From the NCBI GenBank assembly GCA_963767345.1, contig CAVYDO010000004.1:30939-94938 (forward strand): 64,000 bases of DNA. Reading direction: 5' to 3'. Shown piece after piece: positions 53,395 through 57,525 of the stretch (the stretch's first letter is position 1; each line of letters starts with the position of its first letter). Under the pieces are notes generated by a model that saw nothing but the letters and a program-made list of their open reading frames with translations, was not told where the DNA came from and made no database searches. Made by a program: the position numbers and the translations under genes. Source of the stretch: an uncultured Actinomycetota bacterium. Lineage in GTDB: Bacteria; Actinomycetota; Actinomycetes; Propionibacteriales; Nocardioidaceae.

Positions 53395-54630
53395 CTAGCG
53401 AAGCTCGGCGCCGAGCGCGGCCGAGAGATCGCCGCGGTCTGACCTGACGACGTCGTCGAGGCCCAGCCAGCCGGCCAGCCGCCGCAGCTCGCCGGCTAGC
53501 CGGTCCGCCGTCTCGGGCGGCGCGGCGGGTTCGCCGTACGCCGCCTTGACCAACAGCCGGCCGCCCGGCCGGTCGGCCTTGAGGTCGACCCTGGCCGCGA
53601 TGCGGTCGCCGAGGAGGAAGGGCAGGACGTAGTAGCCGTACCGCCGCTTGTGCGCGGGGGTGTAGATCTCGATGCGGTAGTGGAAGTCGAAGAGCCGCTC
53701 GGCGCGCTCCCGCTCCCAGACCAGCGGGTCGAACGGGCTCAGCAGGGTCGCCGCGTCCACCCGACGCGGCCGGACGGCCTCGTGCCAGAGGTACGCCGGC
53801 CGCCGCCAGCCCTCGACCCGCACCCGCTGCAGCTCGCCCGACTCGACGAGGTCGTCGATGGCTCCCTTCGCGCCGCGGGTGCCGAGGCCGGGCTGGTAGC
53901 GCATCCGGTAGTAGTCGGCCAGGCAGCGCCCGGTCGCGACGCCGTGCGACCGGGCGGCGCGACGGACGAGCTCACGTTCGGCGTCGTCGATCGAAGGGGT
54001 CGGCGCGGCGAGCACCTCGGCCGGCAGCACGCGCTCGGGCACGTCGTACCGGACCTCGAACTGGCTGTTTCGCCCGGCGATCGCGACGTCCCCCACCAGG
54101 AACAGGTAGTCGAGGACCTGCTTGGCCTCCGACCAGTTCCACCCCCAGTGCATCCTGTCGCGCGGCACCGAGGTGAACTCGGCCTCCAGGTCGCGGGCGG
54201 TGACGGGGCCTCGTTCGCGGACCGCGGACAGCACCCCCGGCTCGAGGTCCTCGCTGGCCGTCCAGCCCCACTTGCCGCGCTTGGCGCGGTAGGAGTCCAT
54301 GCGATGGCGCATGACCGGCCACAGCTCGACCGGCATGAGCGCCTGCACGTGCGCCCAGTACTCGACGAGGCGCCGGGGGCGGGGTCCGTTGCTCGACGCT
54401 CGGGCGAGGAGCGCTGTGTCGTAGGGACCCATCCGCGAGTAGAGGGGCATCAGGTGGGCTCGTGCGAGCACGTTGACCGAGTCGACCTGGAGCACCCCGG
54501 TGCGGGCCAGAGTGCGGTCGAAGGTGCGCAGCGTCGGCACAGCGTGACGGCGATCGGTGAAGCCCTGAGCCGCCAGCGCGACCCGGCGCGCCTGGGCCTG
54601 CGAGAGGTCGTACGACGGTGCCCGGCTCAC
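53395..54630 (-). CDS. YcaQ/AlkZ-family DNA crosslink-repair glycosylase (winged helix)
   Basis: [43 protein letters not shown]; GTG at 54630 inferred from promoter position. Confidence 0.88.
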
Positions 54631-54638
54631 GATGTCGG

Positions 54639-54660
54639 ACATTACGCGGGCCCGCCGACA
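54639..54660 (-). promoter_or_regulatory. PafBC-type (RecA-NDp) DNA-damage promoter
   Basis: TGTCGG-N10-TAATGT, 8 nt upstream of the GTG of the ycaQ-like gene. Confidence 0.72.
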
Positions 54661-54735
54661 GTCGGGGCGGCGAACGTCGTCCGGCTCGCGGGGCGTGCGT
54701 GGGCGCCGACCCGGCGCAGATTGTCCGGGCATGGG

Positions 54736-54802
54736 CGCCGACCCGTCTGTGTTTGCTGCTCCTCCGCTTCGCTCCCCCGGCGCAAACGCAGACGGGTCGG
54801 CG
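54736..54802. repeat. Hairpin with 21-bp arms, sharing its core with the 6245-6317 element
   Basis: CGCCGACCCGTCTGTGTTTGC / GCAAACGCAGACGGGTCGGCG (20/21); loop contains CTCCTCCGCTTCGCTCCCCCGG. Confidence 0.85.
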
Positions 54803-54808
54803 TTGTGC

Positions 54809-55513
54809 CTACGGCACCTCGAAGAGCTTCTCGCGGACGGCGTACATGACCGCCTCCATGCGCGAGTGGAGCTGGAGCTTCTCCAGGATGTTGCGGACAT
54901 GGTTCTTGACGGTGTTGTCGCTGATGAACAGGCGCGCGGCGATGTCCTTGTTGGTGAGCCCGCGCGCGACGAGCTTGAGGACCTCCATCTCCCGGTCGGT
55001 CAGGCGCAGCCTCGGCAGCTGCTCCTCGGGCTCCTCGGCAAGCTGCTTGAACTCGGCGATCAGCTTGGCGGCCATCGACGGCGAGATGAGCGACTGGCCG
55101 TCGGCCACCACGCGGACCGCGTGCACCACGTCGTCGGTGGACGCGTCCTTGAGGAGGTAGCCGGAGGCGCCGTTCTTGACCGCCTCGACCAGGTCACCCT
55201 CCTCGTCGGATGCGGTGAGCATGATGATCTTGGCCGAGGGCACGGCCTGCTTGATGGCGCGGCAGGCGACGATCCCGGTCTGCTTGGGCATCCGTACGTC
55301 GAGGAGGACGACATCCGGCACGGTCTGCTCGGCCAGGGCGGCGCCCTGCTGGCCGTCGTCGGCCTCGCCGACCACGCGGATGCCGGGCTCGGTGTCGAGC
55401 AGCATGGTGAGTCCACGGCGGAAGAGCTCATGATCGTCGACGACGACGACCCGGACCTCGTCCGTGGGACCGCCGTCGGCTCGGGGGGACGTCACGCTCA
55501 CAGCTGGCATCAT
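54809..55513 (-). CDS. NarL/LuxR-family response regulator (orphan)
   Basis: VVDDHELFRRG, LLDVRMP, GYLLK, LTDREMEVL...TVKNHVRNILEKL; start uncertain. Confidence 0.93.
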   Translation of the reverse strand: MMPAVSVTSPRADGGPTDEVRVVVVDDHELFRRGLTMLLDTEPGIRVVGEADDGQQGAALAEQTVPDVVLLDVRMPKQTGIVACRAIKQAVPSAKIIMLTASDEEGDLVEAVKNGASGYLLKDASTDDVVHAVRVVADGQSLISPSMAAKLIAEFKQLAEEPEEQLPRLRLTDREMEVLKLVARGLTNKDIAARLFISDNTVKNHVRNILEKLQLHSRMEAVMYAVREKLFEVP

Positions 55514-55571
55514 CGCAGAGTCCAGCGGCCGCACGCCGTTATCGGCGTGCCGCACCATGAGTCCGCGCGCG

Positions 55572-56213
55572 CTACGAGGCGTCGGAGCAGTCCATGTCGA
55601 GGCTGATGACGCCGTAGTCGTAGCCGCGGCGCCGGTAGACCACCGACGGCCGCTCGCTCTCCTTGTCGACGAACAGGTAGAAGTCGTGGCCGACCAGCTC
55701 CATCTCGTAGAGCGCCTGGTCGAGCGTCATCCTGGCGGCCGGGTGCGTCTTCTCGCGCACCACCAGCGGCCCCTCACCGGTCACCGTGATCGGACCGATC
55801 TGGCGCTCGACGGCCACGTCGACCTCCTCGACGAGGTCGCCGCCGGAGTCTTGCGCGGCGGCGAGCGCGGCCAGCTCCTTGGCCGCTGCGGCCTTCTGTC
55901 CGCGAGCGCGGTGCCGGTGGCGGCGATCGGCCGCCCGGCGCATCTGCGATGCCATCTTGTCGAGGGCGAGGTCGAGGGCACCCATCTTGTCCTCGGCGGC
56001 GGCCTCGGCGCGGATGACCGGACCCTTGGAGAAGGCGGTCAGCTCGACCTTCACCGCGCGATCGTGCTGCCGGGGGTTGCGCTCACTGGCGACCTCCACC
56101 TGTACCCGCATGATCCGATGGTCGTGCTTCTCGAGTCTGGCGAGCTTGTCCGAGACGTGACTGCGGAAGCGCTCCGTGATCTCGCAGTGCCTGCCGGTGA
56201 CGACAACGTCCAT
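55572..56213 (-). CDS. hpf: Long ribosome hibernation promoting factor (HPF/RaiA)
   Basis: MDVVVTGRH, VIRAEA, MTLDQALYEMELVGHDFYLF, VVYRRRGYDYG. Confidence 0.95.
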   Translation of the reverse strand: MDVVVTGRHCEITERFRSHVSDKLARLEKHDHRIMRVQVEVASERNPRQHDRAVKVELTAFSKGPVIRAEAAAEDKMGALDLALDKMASQMRRAADRRHRHRARGQKAAAAKELAALAAAQDSGGDLVEEVDVAVERQIGPITVTGEGPLVVREKTHPAARMTLDQALYEMELVGHDFYLFVDKESERPSVVYRRRGYDYGVISLDMDCSDAS

Positions 56214-56319
56214 TCCTAACCTCCAGGATCCTTGGGACTTGCGGATTCACAGGGCGTAGCGCCGCGGGTCGGCTCCTTCCAGGTGTGCGGGTACGCCGGT
56301 CGAGTACGGCCGAGATACA

Positions 56320-56646
56320 GGAGTCCGCCCGGCCGACCTGGTCTTCGACCCCACAATCGCCTGCTGAGGTGCTCGCAGCTTCTCTGCCATCCCTGGCGCC
56401 ACTAATGACCTTCTCCCACGGGCTCCCGCATCTGGCGGGACCCGTGAGGCAGGACTTACGTCTAAGCCGCACCGTGATCCCCTCACACCGGCCCGGATCC
56501 CCGTCGACCACCGAAAGGCGTGCGCGGGGGCGGCTCCCGTGCGTGGGTTACGTGGGCCGCTTCGCCTGCGACTGGCATCGGCTAGCCGCCCGGTGGTTTG
56601 CTCGTGCGCACCCCGGACGGGGCAACCACGGACCCGGGCGGACTCC
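56320..56646 (-). ncRNA. raiA-motif structured noncoding RNA
   Basis: Perfect 13-bp terminal stem GGAGTCCGCCCGG/CCGGGCGGACTCC; blocks GATGCCAGTCGCAGGCGAAGCGGCCCACGTAA, GGTGCGGCTTAGACGTAAGTCCTGCC and CAGCAGGCGATTGTGGGGTCGAAGACCAGGTC match the raiA consensus as I recall it; canonical position between comF and hpf. Confidence 0.88.
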
Positions 56647-56657
56647 ATGACGTGACG

Positions 56658-57437
56658 CTACTCGCTGGACCCGCCACGGGAAAGGGCTGCCCCGCCGCCA
56701 TGGATGCCGTAGGCGCCATCAGAGGGAGGCACCCGCGTGCGCCGGGCGGTGGCCGCGACGGTCGCGATCGCCGCGACCGACAGGCCGACGGCCTCCAGGG
56801 CACGCTGCGCCTCGCGTGCGGTGGCACCGGTGGTGATCACGTCGTCACAGACGACCACCCGGACGGCGCCCGCGGATGCCGCCGCCGTCCGGCGCAGCCT
56901 CGCCAGCCGTTCACTCGGGCACTGGTGGTGACCGTGCAGGTTGCTCCACCGCCGCTCGGCGTCGAGGCCGGCTTGGTCCAGGGGCGCCCCGCGCACCACG
57001 AGCAGCCCCCGGCAGCCGACGACATACCCCTGGGCGAGGAGGAGCCTGGCCGCGACGCCGGTGACCGCGCCCAGCGGGTCGTGCCCGCGCGCGCGAACCG
57101 TGGCCGGCCGAGACGGCACCGGCACGAGGACCACCGGCAGGTCAGCGGGGACGGCGAGGCGGACCGAGGCCGCGAGCAGATGCGCCAGCGGAGCCCGCAG
57201 GGCATGCCGGGCGTGCTCCTTGTGGGCGAGCAGCGCGGCCCTGACCACGCCGTCGTAGGCGGCCGCCGCGAACACCGGGGCAAGCCCTGGCGGGGCGGGC
57301 GTCGGACCGGTCCGGGTGGCCACCGCCGGCAGCGTGCGCGCACAGTCGCAGCACAGGGAACGCCCCGGCCGCAGGCAGCCGACGCAGGCCGAGCCCCGGA
57401 TGAGGTCGGCGGCCGAGTCACGCAGCCAGGCCAGCAC
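56658..57437 (-). CDS. comF: ComF-family phosphoribosyltransferase-like protein
   Basis: CVGC...CCDC zinc finger, LVPVPS, RGHD, VVCDDVITTGAT; GTG at 57437. Confidence 0.9.
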   Translation of the reverse strand: MLAWLRDSAADLIRGSACVGCLRPGRSLCCDCARTLPAVATRTGPTPAPPGLAPVFAAAAYDGVVRAALLAHKEHARHALRAPLAHLLAASVRLAVPADLPVVLVPVPSRPATVRARGHDPLGAVTGVAARLLLAQGYVVGCRGLLVVRGAPLDQAGLDAERRWSNLHGHHQCPSERLARLRRTAAASAGAVRVVVCDDVITTGATAREAQRALEAVGLSVAAIATVAATARRTRVPPSDGAYGIHGGGAALSRGGSSE

Positions 57438-57488
57438 CCCGTGAGCACAGCAGGGCCGGAGGCCGGACGCCAGCGCAGATCGCGGAGC

Positions 57489-57525
57489 TGTGGATGACCC
57501 GGGGCCTCCCGCCACCTGTGGACGA
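57489..57525 (-). promoter_or_regulatory. Two DnaA-box-like 9-mers upstream of comF
   Basis: TCGTCCACA and TCATCCACA on the minus strand, each 8/9 to TT(A/G)TCCACA. Confidence 0.35.

What the first reader, a model, noticed from the sequence alone, without database searches (positions are those of the whole stretch)
56320..56646. Unannotated raiA-motif RNA between comF and hpf
Seen: a 327-nt minus-strand region closed by a perfect 13-bp stem, starting 11 nt after the comF stop and ending about 106 nt before hpf, with three long conserved-looking blocks. Known: the raiA motif is a large, highly structured ncRNA of Firmicutes and Actinobacteria found in this gene context; its biochemical function is unknown. 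The ORFs called across it are spurious.
Basis: partly seen in the sequence, partly recalled or inferred. Interest (0 to 1): 0.75.

Follow-up and report, generated by a model that had tools for sequence, protein, structure and literature searches.

The report
raiA RNA with conserved reading frame
The flagged stretch is a genuine, full-length copy of the already known raiA (ModT) structured RNA in a Nocardioides genome. Comparing about 200 related loci showed that in this group the RNA starts with a start codon, keeps one reading frame free of stops, and sits directly ahead of the ribosome-hibernation gene hpf.

Summary
Window 56324..56642 (-) matches Rfam raiA (RF03072) over the whole model at 116.4 bits, above the cut-off of 101.3. 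The perfect 13-bp closing stem is helix P1a, and every published helix and both pseudoknots can be drawn. The locus is an ordinary single-copy member of a known family, of the P2+/P8+ subtype solved for Nocardioides, with unusually long P5 and P7 arms. It lies in the published mtrB-lpqB-comF-[RNA]-hpf-RR-secA context.

Comparison added three points. (1) A conserved sigma-A-type promoter (-10 TAGCGT, overlapping the comF stop) puts the predicted +1 at an ATG 2 nt before P1a. (2) hpf always follows on the same strand, at a median of 61 nt and as little as 29 nt. Relatives that lack raiA keep the same promoter before hpf, so RNA and hpf probably form one unit. (3) The frame set by that ATG/GTG is stop-free across the RNA in about 90% of 175 loci. 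P2 lengths change in multiples of three, and the frame tends to close just before hpf.

This suggests leaderless translation through the RNA. It is not shown: no transcript data could be obtained.

The parts
56678..56683 (-). -35-like hexamer TTTCCC, 17 nt before the -10
   Evidence: Consensus cTTtcg in 72 Nocardioides-type loci and cTGACA in 67 Streptosporangiales-type loci at the same position. Promoter function is inferred, not shown.
56655..56660 (-). -10 hexamer TAGCGT (TANNNT type); its first three bases are the comF stop codon
   Evidence: cTA(G/A/C)CGTc is conserved (T 92%, A 91%, final T 99%) at a fixed distance in 142 distinct loci. It is also kept before hpf in relatives without raiA.
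56646..56648 (-). ATG at the predicted transcription start (A56648, 7th nt after the -10); its G is the first base of P1a
   Evidence: ATG in 136 of 143 loci, replaced by GTG in 10 loci of other families. TSS 7-8 nt after the -10 is the norm in Streptomyces (PMC7157823). The TSS is inferred.
56320..56648 (-). raiA (ModT) RNA, 329 nt from predicted +1 to the end of P1a (Rfam match 56324..56642)
   Evidence: 116.4 bits, full model; helix map.
56634..56646 (-). P1a 5' strand GGAGUCCGCCCGG
   Evidence: 13/13 pairs with 56320..56332; covariation.
56625..56633 (-). GU bulge (56633..56632), P1b 5' CCG (56631..56629), P1c 5' UGGU (56628..56625)
   Evidence: invariant in 133 loci; matches the bulges described in PMC12968392.
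56584..56622 (-). P2 hairpin, 39 nt (optional stem, present in 42% of the family)
   Evidence: Folds alone to -22.4 kcal/mol. It is the 37-nt insertion in the Rfam alignment. Relatives all have a hairpin here, with lengths that are multiples of 3.
56556..56582 (-). P3a/P3b with AU // GAAG internal loop and apical loop GUCGCA (56572..56567), the 5' strand of pseudoknot PK1
   Evidence: all pairs canonical in 133 loci.
56551..56555 (-). P4 5' strand CCACG (pairs with UGUGG 56355..56351), followed by the conserved UAA
56480..56547 (-). P5, unusually long (68 nt; 61 nt against 12 in the Rfam consensus)
   Evidence: -38.3 kcal/mol. The P5-bearing segment ranges 22-77 nt in relatives; the window's is 76.
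56456..56475 (-). PK-L strand: PK2 ACG (56475..56473), PK1 3' strand UGCGGC (56471..56466), exposed linker UUAGACGUAA (56465..56456)
   Evidence: PK1 6/6 pairs. The linker is identical to the conserved UUAGA(C/A)GUAA of PMC12968392. A 32-nt core here is exactly shared by more than 120 genomes.
56360..56453 (-). P6 (CCUGC 56453..56449 / GCAGG 56364..56360) enclosing P7 (56448..56415, 34 nt) and P8 (56411..56367, 45 nt)
   Evidence: P6 invariant and paired in 133 loci.
56343..56355 (-). P4 3' strand UGUGG and the 8-nt linker GGUCGAAG that forms PK2
   Evidence: Same 8-nt sequence pattern as G227-G234 of the Nocardioides structure (PMC12968392). PK2 C-G pair 133/133, G-C pair 122/133.
56320..56342 (-). 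P1c 3' ACCA, GGU bulge, P1b 3' CGG, P1a 3' CCGGGCGGACUCC
56247..56648 (-). Sense ORF of 133 codons from the +1 ATG through the whole RNA; stop TGA 56249..56247, 33 nt before the hpf ATG
   Evidence: Frame conservation. No family hit; no GC3 bias. Translation is inferred, not shown.
56214..56319 (-). 106-nt spacer between RNA and hpf, with the hpf Shine-Dalgarno GGAGG near its end
   Evidence: No TANNNT hexamer in it. No terminator-like site. Its fold is no better than shuffles, z +1.46.
55572..56213 (-). hpf, long-form ribosome hibernation-promoting factor (213 aa)
   Evidence: Pfam Ribosomal_S30AE 78.2 bits plus Ribosom_S30AE_C 79 bits; NCBIfam TIGR00741 84.5 bits against a cut-off of 40.9.
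56658..57515 (-). comF-like phosphoribosyltransferase-fold gene (285 aa)
   Evidence: Pfam Pribosyltran 27.5 bits. NCBIfam TIGR00201 comF gives 35 bits, E 1e-8, over profile positions 1-179 of 190, which is below its curated cut-off. Position is conserved in 26 of 27 relatives.

Best explanation
The locus is the single raiA-motif (ModT) RNA gene of a Nocardioides genome. It belongs to the most elaborate subtype (P1-P8 plus PK1/PK2, like the Nocardioides RNA solved by cryo-EM), with extra-long P5 and P7 arms.

Shown here: family membership, all defining helices, the conserved context, and single copy.

Inferred, about 75%: it is transcribed from its own conserved sigma-A-type promoter (TTTCCC-17 nt-TAGCGT), starting at A56648, 2 nt before P1a.

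Inferred from the family's literature: the folded RNA is a stable, abundant, trans-acting molecule that influences the transition to stationary phase, possibly as an RNP with KhpA/KhpB, whose genes are present in this genome.

Inferred from comparison, about 60%: in this actinomycete clade the RNA is also the 5' part of the hpf transcription unit. hpf is reached by read-through past P1, so making the RNA and making the hibernation factor are coupled.

Inferred, about 45-50%: some nascent transcripts are translated as leaderless mRNA from the +1 AUG through the whole RNA. Selection keeps that frame open until shortly before hpf. The most likely reason is that a ribosome following the polymerase keeps P1 from closing, or prevents polarity, and delivers ribosomes next to the hpf start. 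Transcripts that are not translated fold into the free raiA RNA.
For: Identity:
- RF03072, 116.4 bits against a gathering score of 101.3, E 7e-28, model positions 1-209.
- P1a 13 bp, GU and GGU bulges, P1b, P1c, P2, P3a/b, PK1 6 bp, P4, P5, PK2, linker UUAGACGUAA, P6-P8 are all formable.
- covariation in P1a.
- single copy.
- context mtrB-lpqB-comF-RNA-hpf-RR-AlkZ-like-secA; the lpqB-comF-RNA-hpf-RR core recurs in the relatives (comF in 26 of 27, hpf in 27 of 27) and matches PMC10861870.

Promoter:
- the -10 box sits at a fixed distance in 142 loci.

Unit with hpf:
- hpf lies on the same strand in 112 of 112 loci; the RNA-to-hpf gap has median 61.5 nt, with about 30 loci at 29-35 nt, too short for a promoter.
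- no TANNNT in the window's spacer.
- genomes without raiA, including two of the same genus, keep comF-hpf synteny and the same box plus ATG 88-188 nt before hpf.

Frame:
- ATG in 136 of 143 loci; that frame is open in 130 of 143 against 6 and 10 for the other sense frames.
- stop triplets by frame 350/349/19; P2-bearing segment 48, 51 ... 99 nt.
- 124 of 133 open against a null mean of 28 (maximum 44); 59 of 65 nearest pairs differ in P2 by 3n.
- the conserved UAA and the linker UAG/UAA are never in frame (0 of 133); compensating P5 class in 4 of 4.
- independent set, 29 of 32 open; GTG replaces ATG in 10 loci, 9 of them open; 0 of 13 open in lineages without a start codon.
- the frame closes in the spacer in 70 of 122 loci against 38 and 29 for the control frames.

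Background:
- Leaderless AUG/GUG translation is efficient in Actinobacteria (PMC6101614).
- KhpA and KhpB genes are present.
Against: - The TSS, the 3' end, read-through into hpf and translation are therefore all inferred.
- The generic promoter/terminator scan finds nothing here, though it is not suited to actinobacterial promoters.
- The open frame has no coding-type GC3 bias (0.69/0.70/0.675 against hpf 0.73/0.42/0.92).
- The frame differs between lineages after P5, so no conserved protein is encoded.
- The position of the ORF stop relative to the hpf start is scattered (-116 to +998).
- In raiA-less leaders the ATG frame is no more open than a control frame.
- In Clostridia the RNA acts in trans, and authors argue against a cis role (PMC10861870, PMC11706538). 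P2-less lineages have no 5' start codon or open frame. Any translation-linked role is therefore clade-specific, not the family's core function.
- KhpB binding is disputed: not seen in C. difficile, micromolar in vitro.
- Loci are phylogenetically related, so the counts overstate the number of independent events.
Confidence: 0.85

Rival explanations
1. Stand-alone small-RNA gene only. The RNA ends at P1, hpf has its own promoter in the spacer, nothing is translated, and the open frame is a by-product of something other than translation.
For: This is the published view for Clostridia: trans complementation, own promoter and terminator (PMC10861870, PMC11706538). Some actinobacterial loci have a U-run right after P1 and long spacers of 185-450 nt, which fits independent units. 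There is no GC3 bias.
Against: About 30 loci leave only 29-35 nt between P1 and the hpf ATG. The window's spacer has no TANNNT. No non-translational process is known that would restrict hairpin lengths to multiples of three, exclude three conserved stop triplets from one frame in 133 of 133 loci, or swap ATG for GTG.
Confidence: 0.3
2. Cis-acting riboswitch-like leader. The RNA binds a ligand, and P1 formation decides hpf expression through an alternative pairing.
For: Rfam types the family as 'Cis-reg; riboswitch'. The RNA is always on the same strand and close to hpf in this clade.
Against: No conserved pairing exists between the P1 3' strand and the downstream spacer (mean z 0.02 over 142 loci; window z -1.06). 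No terminator-like site. The spacer fold is no better than shuffles. Published tests found no small-molecule binding (PMC5737381), and trans complementation is shown in Clostridia.
Confidence: 0.07
3. Ribosome-engaging decoy. The mature RNA is loaded on 70S ribosomes through its 5' AUG, and the ribosome stalls on the pseudoknotted core or at the stop-less 3' end. This would sequester ribosomes in concert with HPF.
For: Start codon at +1 and absence of stops, with the constraint strongest in the 5' two thirds; 8 of 13 exceptions hit the P8 UAG near the 3' end. Neighbourhood with hpf.
Against: In the folded RNA the G of the AUG is already paired in P1a. The frame tends to close in the spacer, which only matters on a read-through transcript. 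The feature is absent from most of the family.
Confidence: 0.07
4. An ordinary protein-coding gene of 133 codons that happens to match the RNA model.
For: Open frame with ATG; triplet indels.
Against: No Pfam or NCBIfam hit. Flat GC by codon position. The frame through the conserved core differs between lineages (P5 classes 1 and 2). Stop positions are variable. Conservation follows helices and pseudoknots.
Confidence: 0.02

Closest known systems
raiA motif RNA / ModT (Rfam RF03072; Weinberg 2017 PMC5737381; Soares 2024 PMC10861870; Lence 2024 PMC11706538)
   Same: Same family by covariance model. Same P1, P3, P4, P6 and PK1/PK2 core, same conserved linker, same comFC-upstream / hpf(raiA)-downstream context.
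   Different: The studied Clostridium RNAs lack P2, are 204-215 nt, are AT-rich with stops in all frames, and have their own terminators or a long isoform. Here the RNA is 329 nt, has P2, starts with AUG, keeps one frame open and lies 106 nt before hpf.
Ns-raiA, the 253-nt raiA RNA of Nocardioides sp. Iso805N solved by cryo-EM (He 2026, PMC12968392)
   Same: Same genus-level lineage and same subtype (all eight stems). From the Rfam start, numbering coincides up to position 83: G10, G14, U19, G20, C21-U59 for P2, A60, A65-U66, G71-A76. Same 8-nt GGUCGAAG linker and same UUAGACGUAA.
   Different: The window's RNA is about 70 nt longer, through P5 (68 nt) and longer P7/P8 arms. It has G where Ns-raiA has A80. 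That paper does not discuss promoter, hpf linkage or reading frame.
Leader-peptide attenuators and translated upstream ORFs; leaderless small ORFs of Actinobacteria (general knowledge; PMC6101614)
   Same: A start codon at the 5' end of a leader, a frame whose sequence is not conserved but whose openness is, and closure shortly before the regulated gene.
   Different: Known leader ORFs are short and lie beside, not throughout, a 300-nt tertiary-structured RNA that also exists as a functional free molecule. No terminator/antiterminator pair was found here. Membership is not claimed.
Dual-function RNAs such as SgrS/SgrT or RNAIII/hld (from my own knowledge, not tested here)
   Same: One transcript with both a structured-RNA role and a translated frame.
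   Different: In those RNAs the peptide is conserved and occupies a separate segment. Here the frame runs through the structured core and the peptide sequence is not conserved beyond what the RNA dictates.

Membership tests
raiA motif RNA (RF03072) | Score at or above the curated gathering threshold of the family covariance model, over the full model | tested here: met
   116.4 bits against 101.3, model positions 1-209 of 209, E 7e-28. Same result in the whole genome, single copy.
raiA motif RNA (RF03072) | Closing stem P1 in three segments, with a GU bulge (5' strand) and a GGU bulge (3' strand) and conserved P1a length | tested here: met
   P1a 13 bp, GU, P1b CCG/CGG, GGU, P1c UGGU/ACCA. P1a pairs 13/13 in 110 of 118 loci, with compensatory changes.
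raiA motif RNA (RF03072) | Core P3a-P3b with A-rich asymmetric loop, P4, and pseudoknots PK1 (6 bp) and PK2 | tested here: met
   P3a GCCG/CGGC, P3b GCC/GGC, loop AU // GAAG, PK1 GUCGCA/UGCGGC 6/6, P4 CCACG/UGUGG, PK2 C-G and G-C. Pairs are canonical in 122-133 of 133 loci. The core is nearly invariant in this clade, so it offers little covariation of its own.
raiA motif RNA (RF03072) | Conserved single-stranded linker UUAGA(C/A)GUAA between PK1 and P6 | tested here: met
   UUAGACGUAA at 56465..56456.
raiA motif RNA (RF03072) | Typical context: downstream of comFC (74%), upstream of raiA/hpf (66%); in Actinomycetota near mtrA/mtrB/lpqB, RR, secA | tested here: met
   The comF assignment itself is weak (TIGR00201 35 bits, below its cut-off).
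raiA motif RNA (RF03072) | Expressed as a discrete, abundant, stable RNA | not testable with these tools
Only a conserved promoter supports expression.
raiA motif RNA (RF03072) | Acts in trans on growth-phase transition; binds KhpA-KhpB | not testable with these tools
   Genes for KhpA (KH, 68 bits) and KhpB/Jag (KH + R3H, 72.5 bits) exist in the genome. Binding and phenotype are untested.
Riboswitch / cis-regulatory leader | Expression platform: alternative pairing or terminator that couples aptamer folding to the downstream gene | tested here: not met
   No terminator-like site. No conserved complementarity of the P1 3' strand to the spacer (mean z 0.02).
Riboswitch / cis-regulatory leader | Constant position in the 5' leader of the regulated gene, on the same strand | tested here: met
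   112 of 112 loci on the same strand, median gap 61.5 nt. This holds for this clade only; the literature reports variable distance and orientation family-wide.
Translated leaderless (upstream) ORF | AUG or GUG at the transcript's 5' end | tested here: inconclusive
   ATG in 136 of 143 loci, and ATG or GTG in 42 of 55 of the second set, always 6-7 nt after the -10. The TSS itself is only predicted.
Translated leaderless (upstream) ORF | Reading frame maintained in evolution (indels in triplets, stops excluded) | tested here: met
Translated leaderless (upstream) ORF | Coding-type codon bias, or a peptide conserved beyond nucleotide constraints | tested here: not met
   GC by codon position is flat. 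Two alternative frames are used after P5.
Translated leaderless (upstream) ORF | Ribosome occupancy or a peptide product | not testable with these tools
   No Ribo-seq or proteome access.

The most novel reading that the evidence does not exclude
In the P2-bearing actinomycete lineages (Nocardioidaceae, Streptosporangiales, Acidothermaceae, Sporichthyaceae and others), the raiA RNA is not only a free structured RNA. It is embedded in a leaderless open reading frame that begins at the +1 AUG/GUG of the promoter that also serves hpf. Ribosomes would read through the whole RNA on part of the transcripts. Selection therefore forbids in-frame stops, forces the optional hairpins to grow and shrink by triplets, and closes the frame just ahead of hpf. 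Under this reading, the choice between a folded free raiA RNA and a translated raiA-hpf messenger would couple the cell's translational state to production of the ribosome-hibernation factor. That would give the first mechanistic link between raiA RNA and the gene it is named after.
Probability: 0.45. Interest if true: 0.75.

Novelty: new member of a known kind. Interest (0 to 1): 0.5.

Why it matters
The locus itself adds only one more raiA RNA to a family of more than 2,500 species. raiA is nevertheless one of the most widespread and most abundant bacterial RNAs without a known biochemical function. Nothing so far explains why it sits next to the hibernation gene it is named after, and all functional work has been done in Clostridia.

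The comparative patterns found here are a fixed promoter with the RNA at +1, obligatory same-strand proximity to hpf, retention of that promoter where the RNA was lost, and a start codon with a frame kept open by triplet indels. They turn that association into concrete, cheap experiments in non-pathogenic actinomycetes.

If translation through the RNA is real, it would be an unusual case of a large tertiary-structured RNA evolving under a reading-frame constraint. It would tie raiA to translation control.

Tried and rejected
2. The generic sigma-70 and terminator scan found nothing. It cannot see TANNNT-type actinobacterial promoters, so promoter inference rests on conservation.
3. Riboswitch-like anti-P1 element. 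In the window a downstream GGAGCCGACCCG resembles the P1a 5' strand. The duplex is no better than shuffles (z -1.06) and nothing similar is conserved (mean z 0.02, 142 loci). Rejected.
4. Ordinary protein gene: rejected on no family hits, flat GC3 and lineage-dependent frame after P5.
5. Fixed translational coupling. The ORF stop relative to the hpf start is scattered and the hpf frame is random relative to the ATG frame. Only a statistical tendency to close in the spacer remains.
6. 'Ancestral leaderless uORF before hpf' in relatives that lack raiA. The ATG at +1 is there in 14 of 20, but its frame is no more open than a control frame (0.80 against 0.81 of leader length). Not supported.
7. 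Antisense ORF as the cause of the triplet pattern: antisense frames are open in only 22-55 of 143 loci. Rejected.
8. Naming the organism by exact DNA search gave no match, because the window's own genome is withheld. The genus was inferred from contig-length identity of same-genus handles with named records (G024:C14 = Nocardioides mangrovi scaffold, 1,072,428 bp).
9. Building my own covariance model was not attempted, because the model would be too long for the calibration limit. Anchor-based mapping in Python was used instead.
Full report
**1. The observation.**
On the minus strand, GGAGUCCGCCCGG (56646..56634) and CCGGGCGGACUCC (56332..56320) form a perfect 13-bp helix enclosing 301 nt. The upstream ORF 57515..56658 ends with TAG 56660..56658, 11 nt before the helix. 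The downstream ORF starts at ATG 56213, 106 nt after it. The 327-nt strand folds to -175.8 kcal/mol, z = -3.35, and none of 100 shuffles folds as well. All stated coordinates are correct.

**2.
A scan of the whole window against Rfam 15 gives one hit above threshold: raiA (RF03072), 56324..56642 minus strand, 116.4 bits (gathering score 101.3), E 7e-28, model positions 1-209 of 209, not truncated. It is the only copy in the 4.38-Mb genome.

The modest score comes from long insertions. There is a 37-nt insert after model position 21, 61 nt where the model has 12, and a longer hairpin after the linker. In a sample of 401 genomes of the phylum, 144 carry the RNA, and this copy ranks about 141st by score.

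**3. Anatomy.**
The sequence was mapped onto the nomenclature of the 2024 consensus and the 2026 cryo-EM structures (PMC10861870, PMC12968392). Every element can be formed:
- P1a, 13 bp
- GU bulge
- P1b, CCG/CGG
- GGU bulge
- P1c, UGGU/ACCA
- P2 hairpin, 39 nt
- P3a and P3b, with AU // GAAG loop
- PK1, GUCGCA/UGCGGC, 6 bp
- P4, CCACG/UGUGG
- P5, 68 nt
- PK2
- exposed linker UUAGACGUAA
- P6, CCUGC/GCAGG
- P7, 34 nt
- P8, 45 nt
- the 8-nt GGUCGAAG strand

Counted from the Rfam start, numbering coincides with the Nocardioides sp. Iso805N RNA of the cryo-EM paper up to position 83, including a P2 of identical length (C21-U59).

The genus is Nocardioides.

At 327-329 nt the RNA is among the longest of about 118 actinobacterial copies (median 270 nt). 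The extra length lies in peripheral arms that the structural work shows to be dispensable for the fold.

**4. Comparative support.**
28 of 41 relatives carry one copy, 222-319 nt. The order lpqB-comF-RNA-hpf-response regulator recurs across the 27 relatives: hpf follows in all 27 and comF precedes in 26, with lpqB and the regulator missed in a few. This is the context published for Actinomycetota.

A 32-nt core around the linker is exactly identical in more than 120 genomes, including Bifidobacterium and, in a variant, Clostridia MAGs.

P1a pairs 13/13 in 110 of 118 loci. Pairs 3, 4, 5, 6 and 9 show double-sided changes (for example A-U 69 / C-G 62). The inner core is invariant in this clade, which is consistent but uninformative.

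Flanking genes:
- hpf is a long HPF: S30AE plus the C-terminal domain, TIGR00741 at 84.5 bits.
- The 'comF' assignment rests on a PRTase domain and a sub-threshold TIGR00201 match plus synteny.

**5. Promoter (inferred).**
All loci share cTA(G/A/C)CGTc, followed after 6 nt by ATGG. The GG opens P1a. A -35-like element lies 17 nt upstream: cTTtcg in Nocardioides-type loci and cTGACA in Streptosporangiales-type loci.

In the window the elements are:
- -35 TTTCCC, 56683..56678
- -10 TAGCGT, 56660..56655, whose TAG is the comF stop
- predicted +1 at A56648

A start 7-8 nt after a TANNNT box is the rule in Streptomyces (PMC7157823). P2-less lineages of other classes instead have TATAAT boxes and no ATG.

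**6. Link to hpf (inferred).**
- In 112 of 112 loci where hpf could be located, it follows on the same strand. The distance from the end of P1a to the start codon has a median of 61.5 nt, and about 30 loci have only 29-35 nt. That leaves room for a Shine-Dalgarno sequence but not for a promoter.
- The window's 106-nt spacer has no TANNNT hexamer, no terminator-like site and no significant structure.
- Two species of the same genus and several other families have lost the RNA. They keep comF-hpf and the same box plus ATG 88-188 nt before hpf, in 14 of 20 loci examined.

The simplest reading is that this is the hpf promoter and that the RNA sits at its +1. A few loci have a U-run directly after P1 and long spacers, so the arrangement is not uniform.

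This differs from the family-wide statement that the RNA is commonly hundreds of nucleotides from the next gene and variably oriented.

**7. An unexpected reading-frame constraint.**
The ATG at the predicted +1 is present in 136 of 143 loci. The frame it sets has no stop across the whole RNA in 130 of 143. The other two sense frames are open in 6 and 10, and antisense frames in 22-55. Over 142 distinct RNAs, stop triplets fall 350/349/19 by frame.

This is not a by-product of G+C content. The RNA contains conserved UAA (after P4), UAG and UAA (in the linker) and UAG (in P8), separated by hairpins of very variable length.
- The segment holding P2 takes 20 lengths from 47 to 99 nt. Fourteen are multiples of three (127 of 133 loci), six are singletons of 3n-1, and none is 3n+1, the class that would put UAA in frame.
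- The segment holding P5 takes 23 lengths and never the class that would put the linker stops in frame.
- The conserved UAA and the linker stops are in frame in 0 of 133 loci.
- All four Nocardioides-type loci with a 3n-1 P2 carry the minority P5 class that restores an open frame.
- Adding a random 0-2 nt in each variable loop leaves on average 28 of 133 frames open (maximum 44 in 1000 trials), against 124 observed.
- 59 of 65 non-overlapping nearest pairs differ in P2 length by a multiple of three.

An independent set found with a different core variant reproduces the pattern:
- 29 of 32 new ATG loci are open, against 7 and 1 for the other frames.
- The P2 segment is 3n in 31 of 32.
- Ten loci from other families (Acidothermaceae, Sporichthyaceae and others) have GTG at the same place, and 9 of them are open.
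- Among 13 loci without a start codon there (mostly P2-less Acidimicrobiales and Clostridia), that frame is never open.

In a further control set of 28 P2-less RNAs of other classes, only 2 have any stop-free sense frame. In P2-less RNAs the junction GGUUGAAAG would place UGA exactly in this frame.

Downstream of the RNA the same frame acquires a stop before hpf in 70 of 122 loci, against 38 and 29 for the other frames. For spacers of 51-120 nt the figures are 46 of 63 against 19 and 11.

In the window the ORF runs 56648..56247 (133 codons) and stops 33 nt before the hpf ATG.

**8. What the frame is not.**
- It has no coding-type GC3 bias: 0.69/0.70/0.675 against 0.73/0.42/0.92 for hpf.
- It has no family match.
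- After P5, different lineages read the conserved core in different frames. No conserved protein is encoded beyond what the RNA sequence dictates.
- The stop position relative to hpf is scattered.
- In raiA-less leaders the ATG frame is not preferentially open.

Selection therefore appears to act on openness of the frame, not on a product.

Only translation reads in triplets. A 5' AUG or GUG suffices for efficient leaderless initiation in mycobacteria, and leaderless transcripts gain weight under starvation (PMC6101614).

My preferred interpretation, at about 45-50%, is that part of the nascent transcripts is translated from +1 through the RNA toward hpf. I did not find this described: the three raiA papers searched do not mention a start codon, leaderless translation or an ORF in the RNA, and earlier notes of this scan on other raiA loci do not either.

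**9. How it most likely works.**
Shown: family membership, architecture, context, conserved promoter-like box, and the frame statistics.

Inferred from the literature: the folded RNA is stable, abundant and trans-acting, and influences entry into stationary phase (PMC10861870, PMC11706538). It may bind KhpA-KhpB through the exposed linker (PMC12968392). Both genes exist in this genome, although KhpB binding was not seen in C. difficile.

Inferred here: RNA and hpf share one promoter. Transcripts on which a 70S ribosome loads at the 5' AUG before P1 can close are read through, and this favours hpf expression. Transcripts that fold first become free raiA RNA, whose AUG is then tucked against P1a.

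A riboswitch-like switch was tested and not found.

**10. Verdict.**
The finding is real and correctly interpreted, and the element belongs to a known family, so the locus as such is ordinary. The added value lies in the clade-wide patterns, which are statistically strong but rest on sequence comparison only.

Noticed in passing
window 56584..56622 (P2) against 56625..56646 and 56320..56342: The window's P2 looks like a miniature copy of P1. Its 3' strand ACCACCGGGCGG could pair with the P1 5' strand (CCGCCCGG ... GUGGU) in place of the true 3' strand. This is a potential misfolding or alternative pairing, and it is not seen in relatives' P2 sequences.
   Followed up: partly
L154, L191-L193 (Kribbella-like genomes without raiA), leader before hpf: The ~170-180-nt leader after the conserved TAGCGT-N6-ATG is closed by a 9-bp long-range stem (ACACCCGCU / AGCGGGUGU) followed by a U-rich run. 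It contains GGAGUCCGCCGGGCCGGAC, reminiscent of the two P1a strands. This is possibly a collapsed remnant of raiA or a different small leader RNA. Its 47-50-codon frame from the ATG stops 30-33 nt before hpf.
   Followed up: partly
L025 (G036:C2), same order, other family: The Rfam hit (119 bits) lacks a recognisable P1 5' strand and promoter box, but keeps the 3' strand followed by a U-run (GGGUGCUUUUUUCGG). This is either a 5'-rearranged copy or a different 5' closure.
   Followed up: no
L215, L220, L228, L253 (Clostridia MAGs): A 32-nt stretch around PK1 and the linker (GAGCACGGTGCGGCTTAGNNGTAAGNCCTGCC) is matched exactly in Clostridia as well as Actinomycetota. This shows extreme cross-phylum conservation of this part of the RNA.
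   Followed up: no
L195, L196 (raiA-less, same order) and six raiA loci: The frame from the +1 ATG ends in a UGAUG or AUGA overlap with the hpf start codon (stop at -2 or +1). This is the classical arrangement for translational coupling.
   Followed up: partly
G014:C216:6755-6905 (L029): One same-genus assembly has a second, partial raiA match (79 bits, model positions 33-176) at a contig end. It is probably an assembly fragment or contamination rather than a true second copy.
   Followed up: no
window 53395..54900 (-) and 54809..55558 (-): The listed AlkZ-like DNA glycosylase ORF (501 aa from ATG 54900) overlaps the end of the LuxR-type response regulator by about 90 nt. The Pfam match begins at residue 131, so its true start is probably further downstream.
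   Followed up: no
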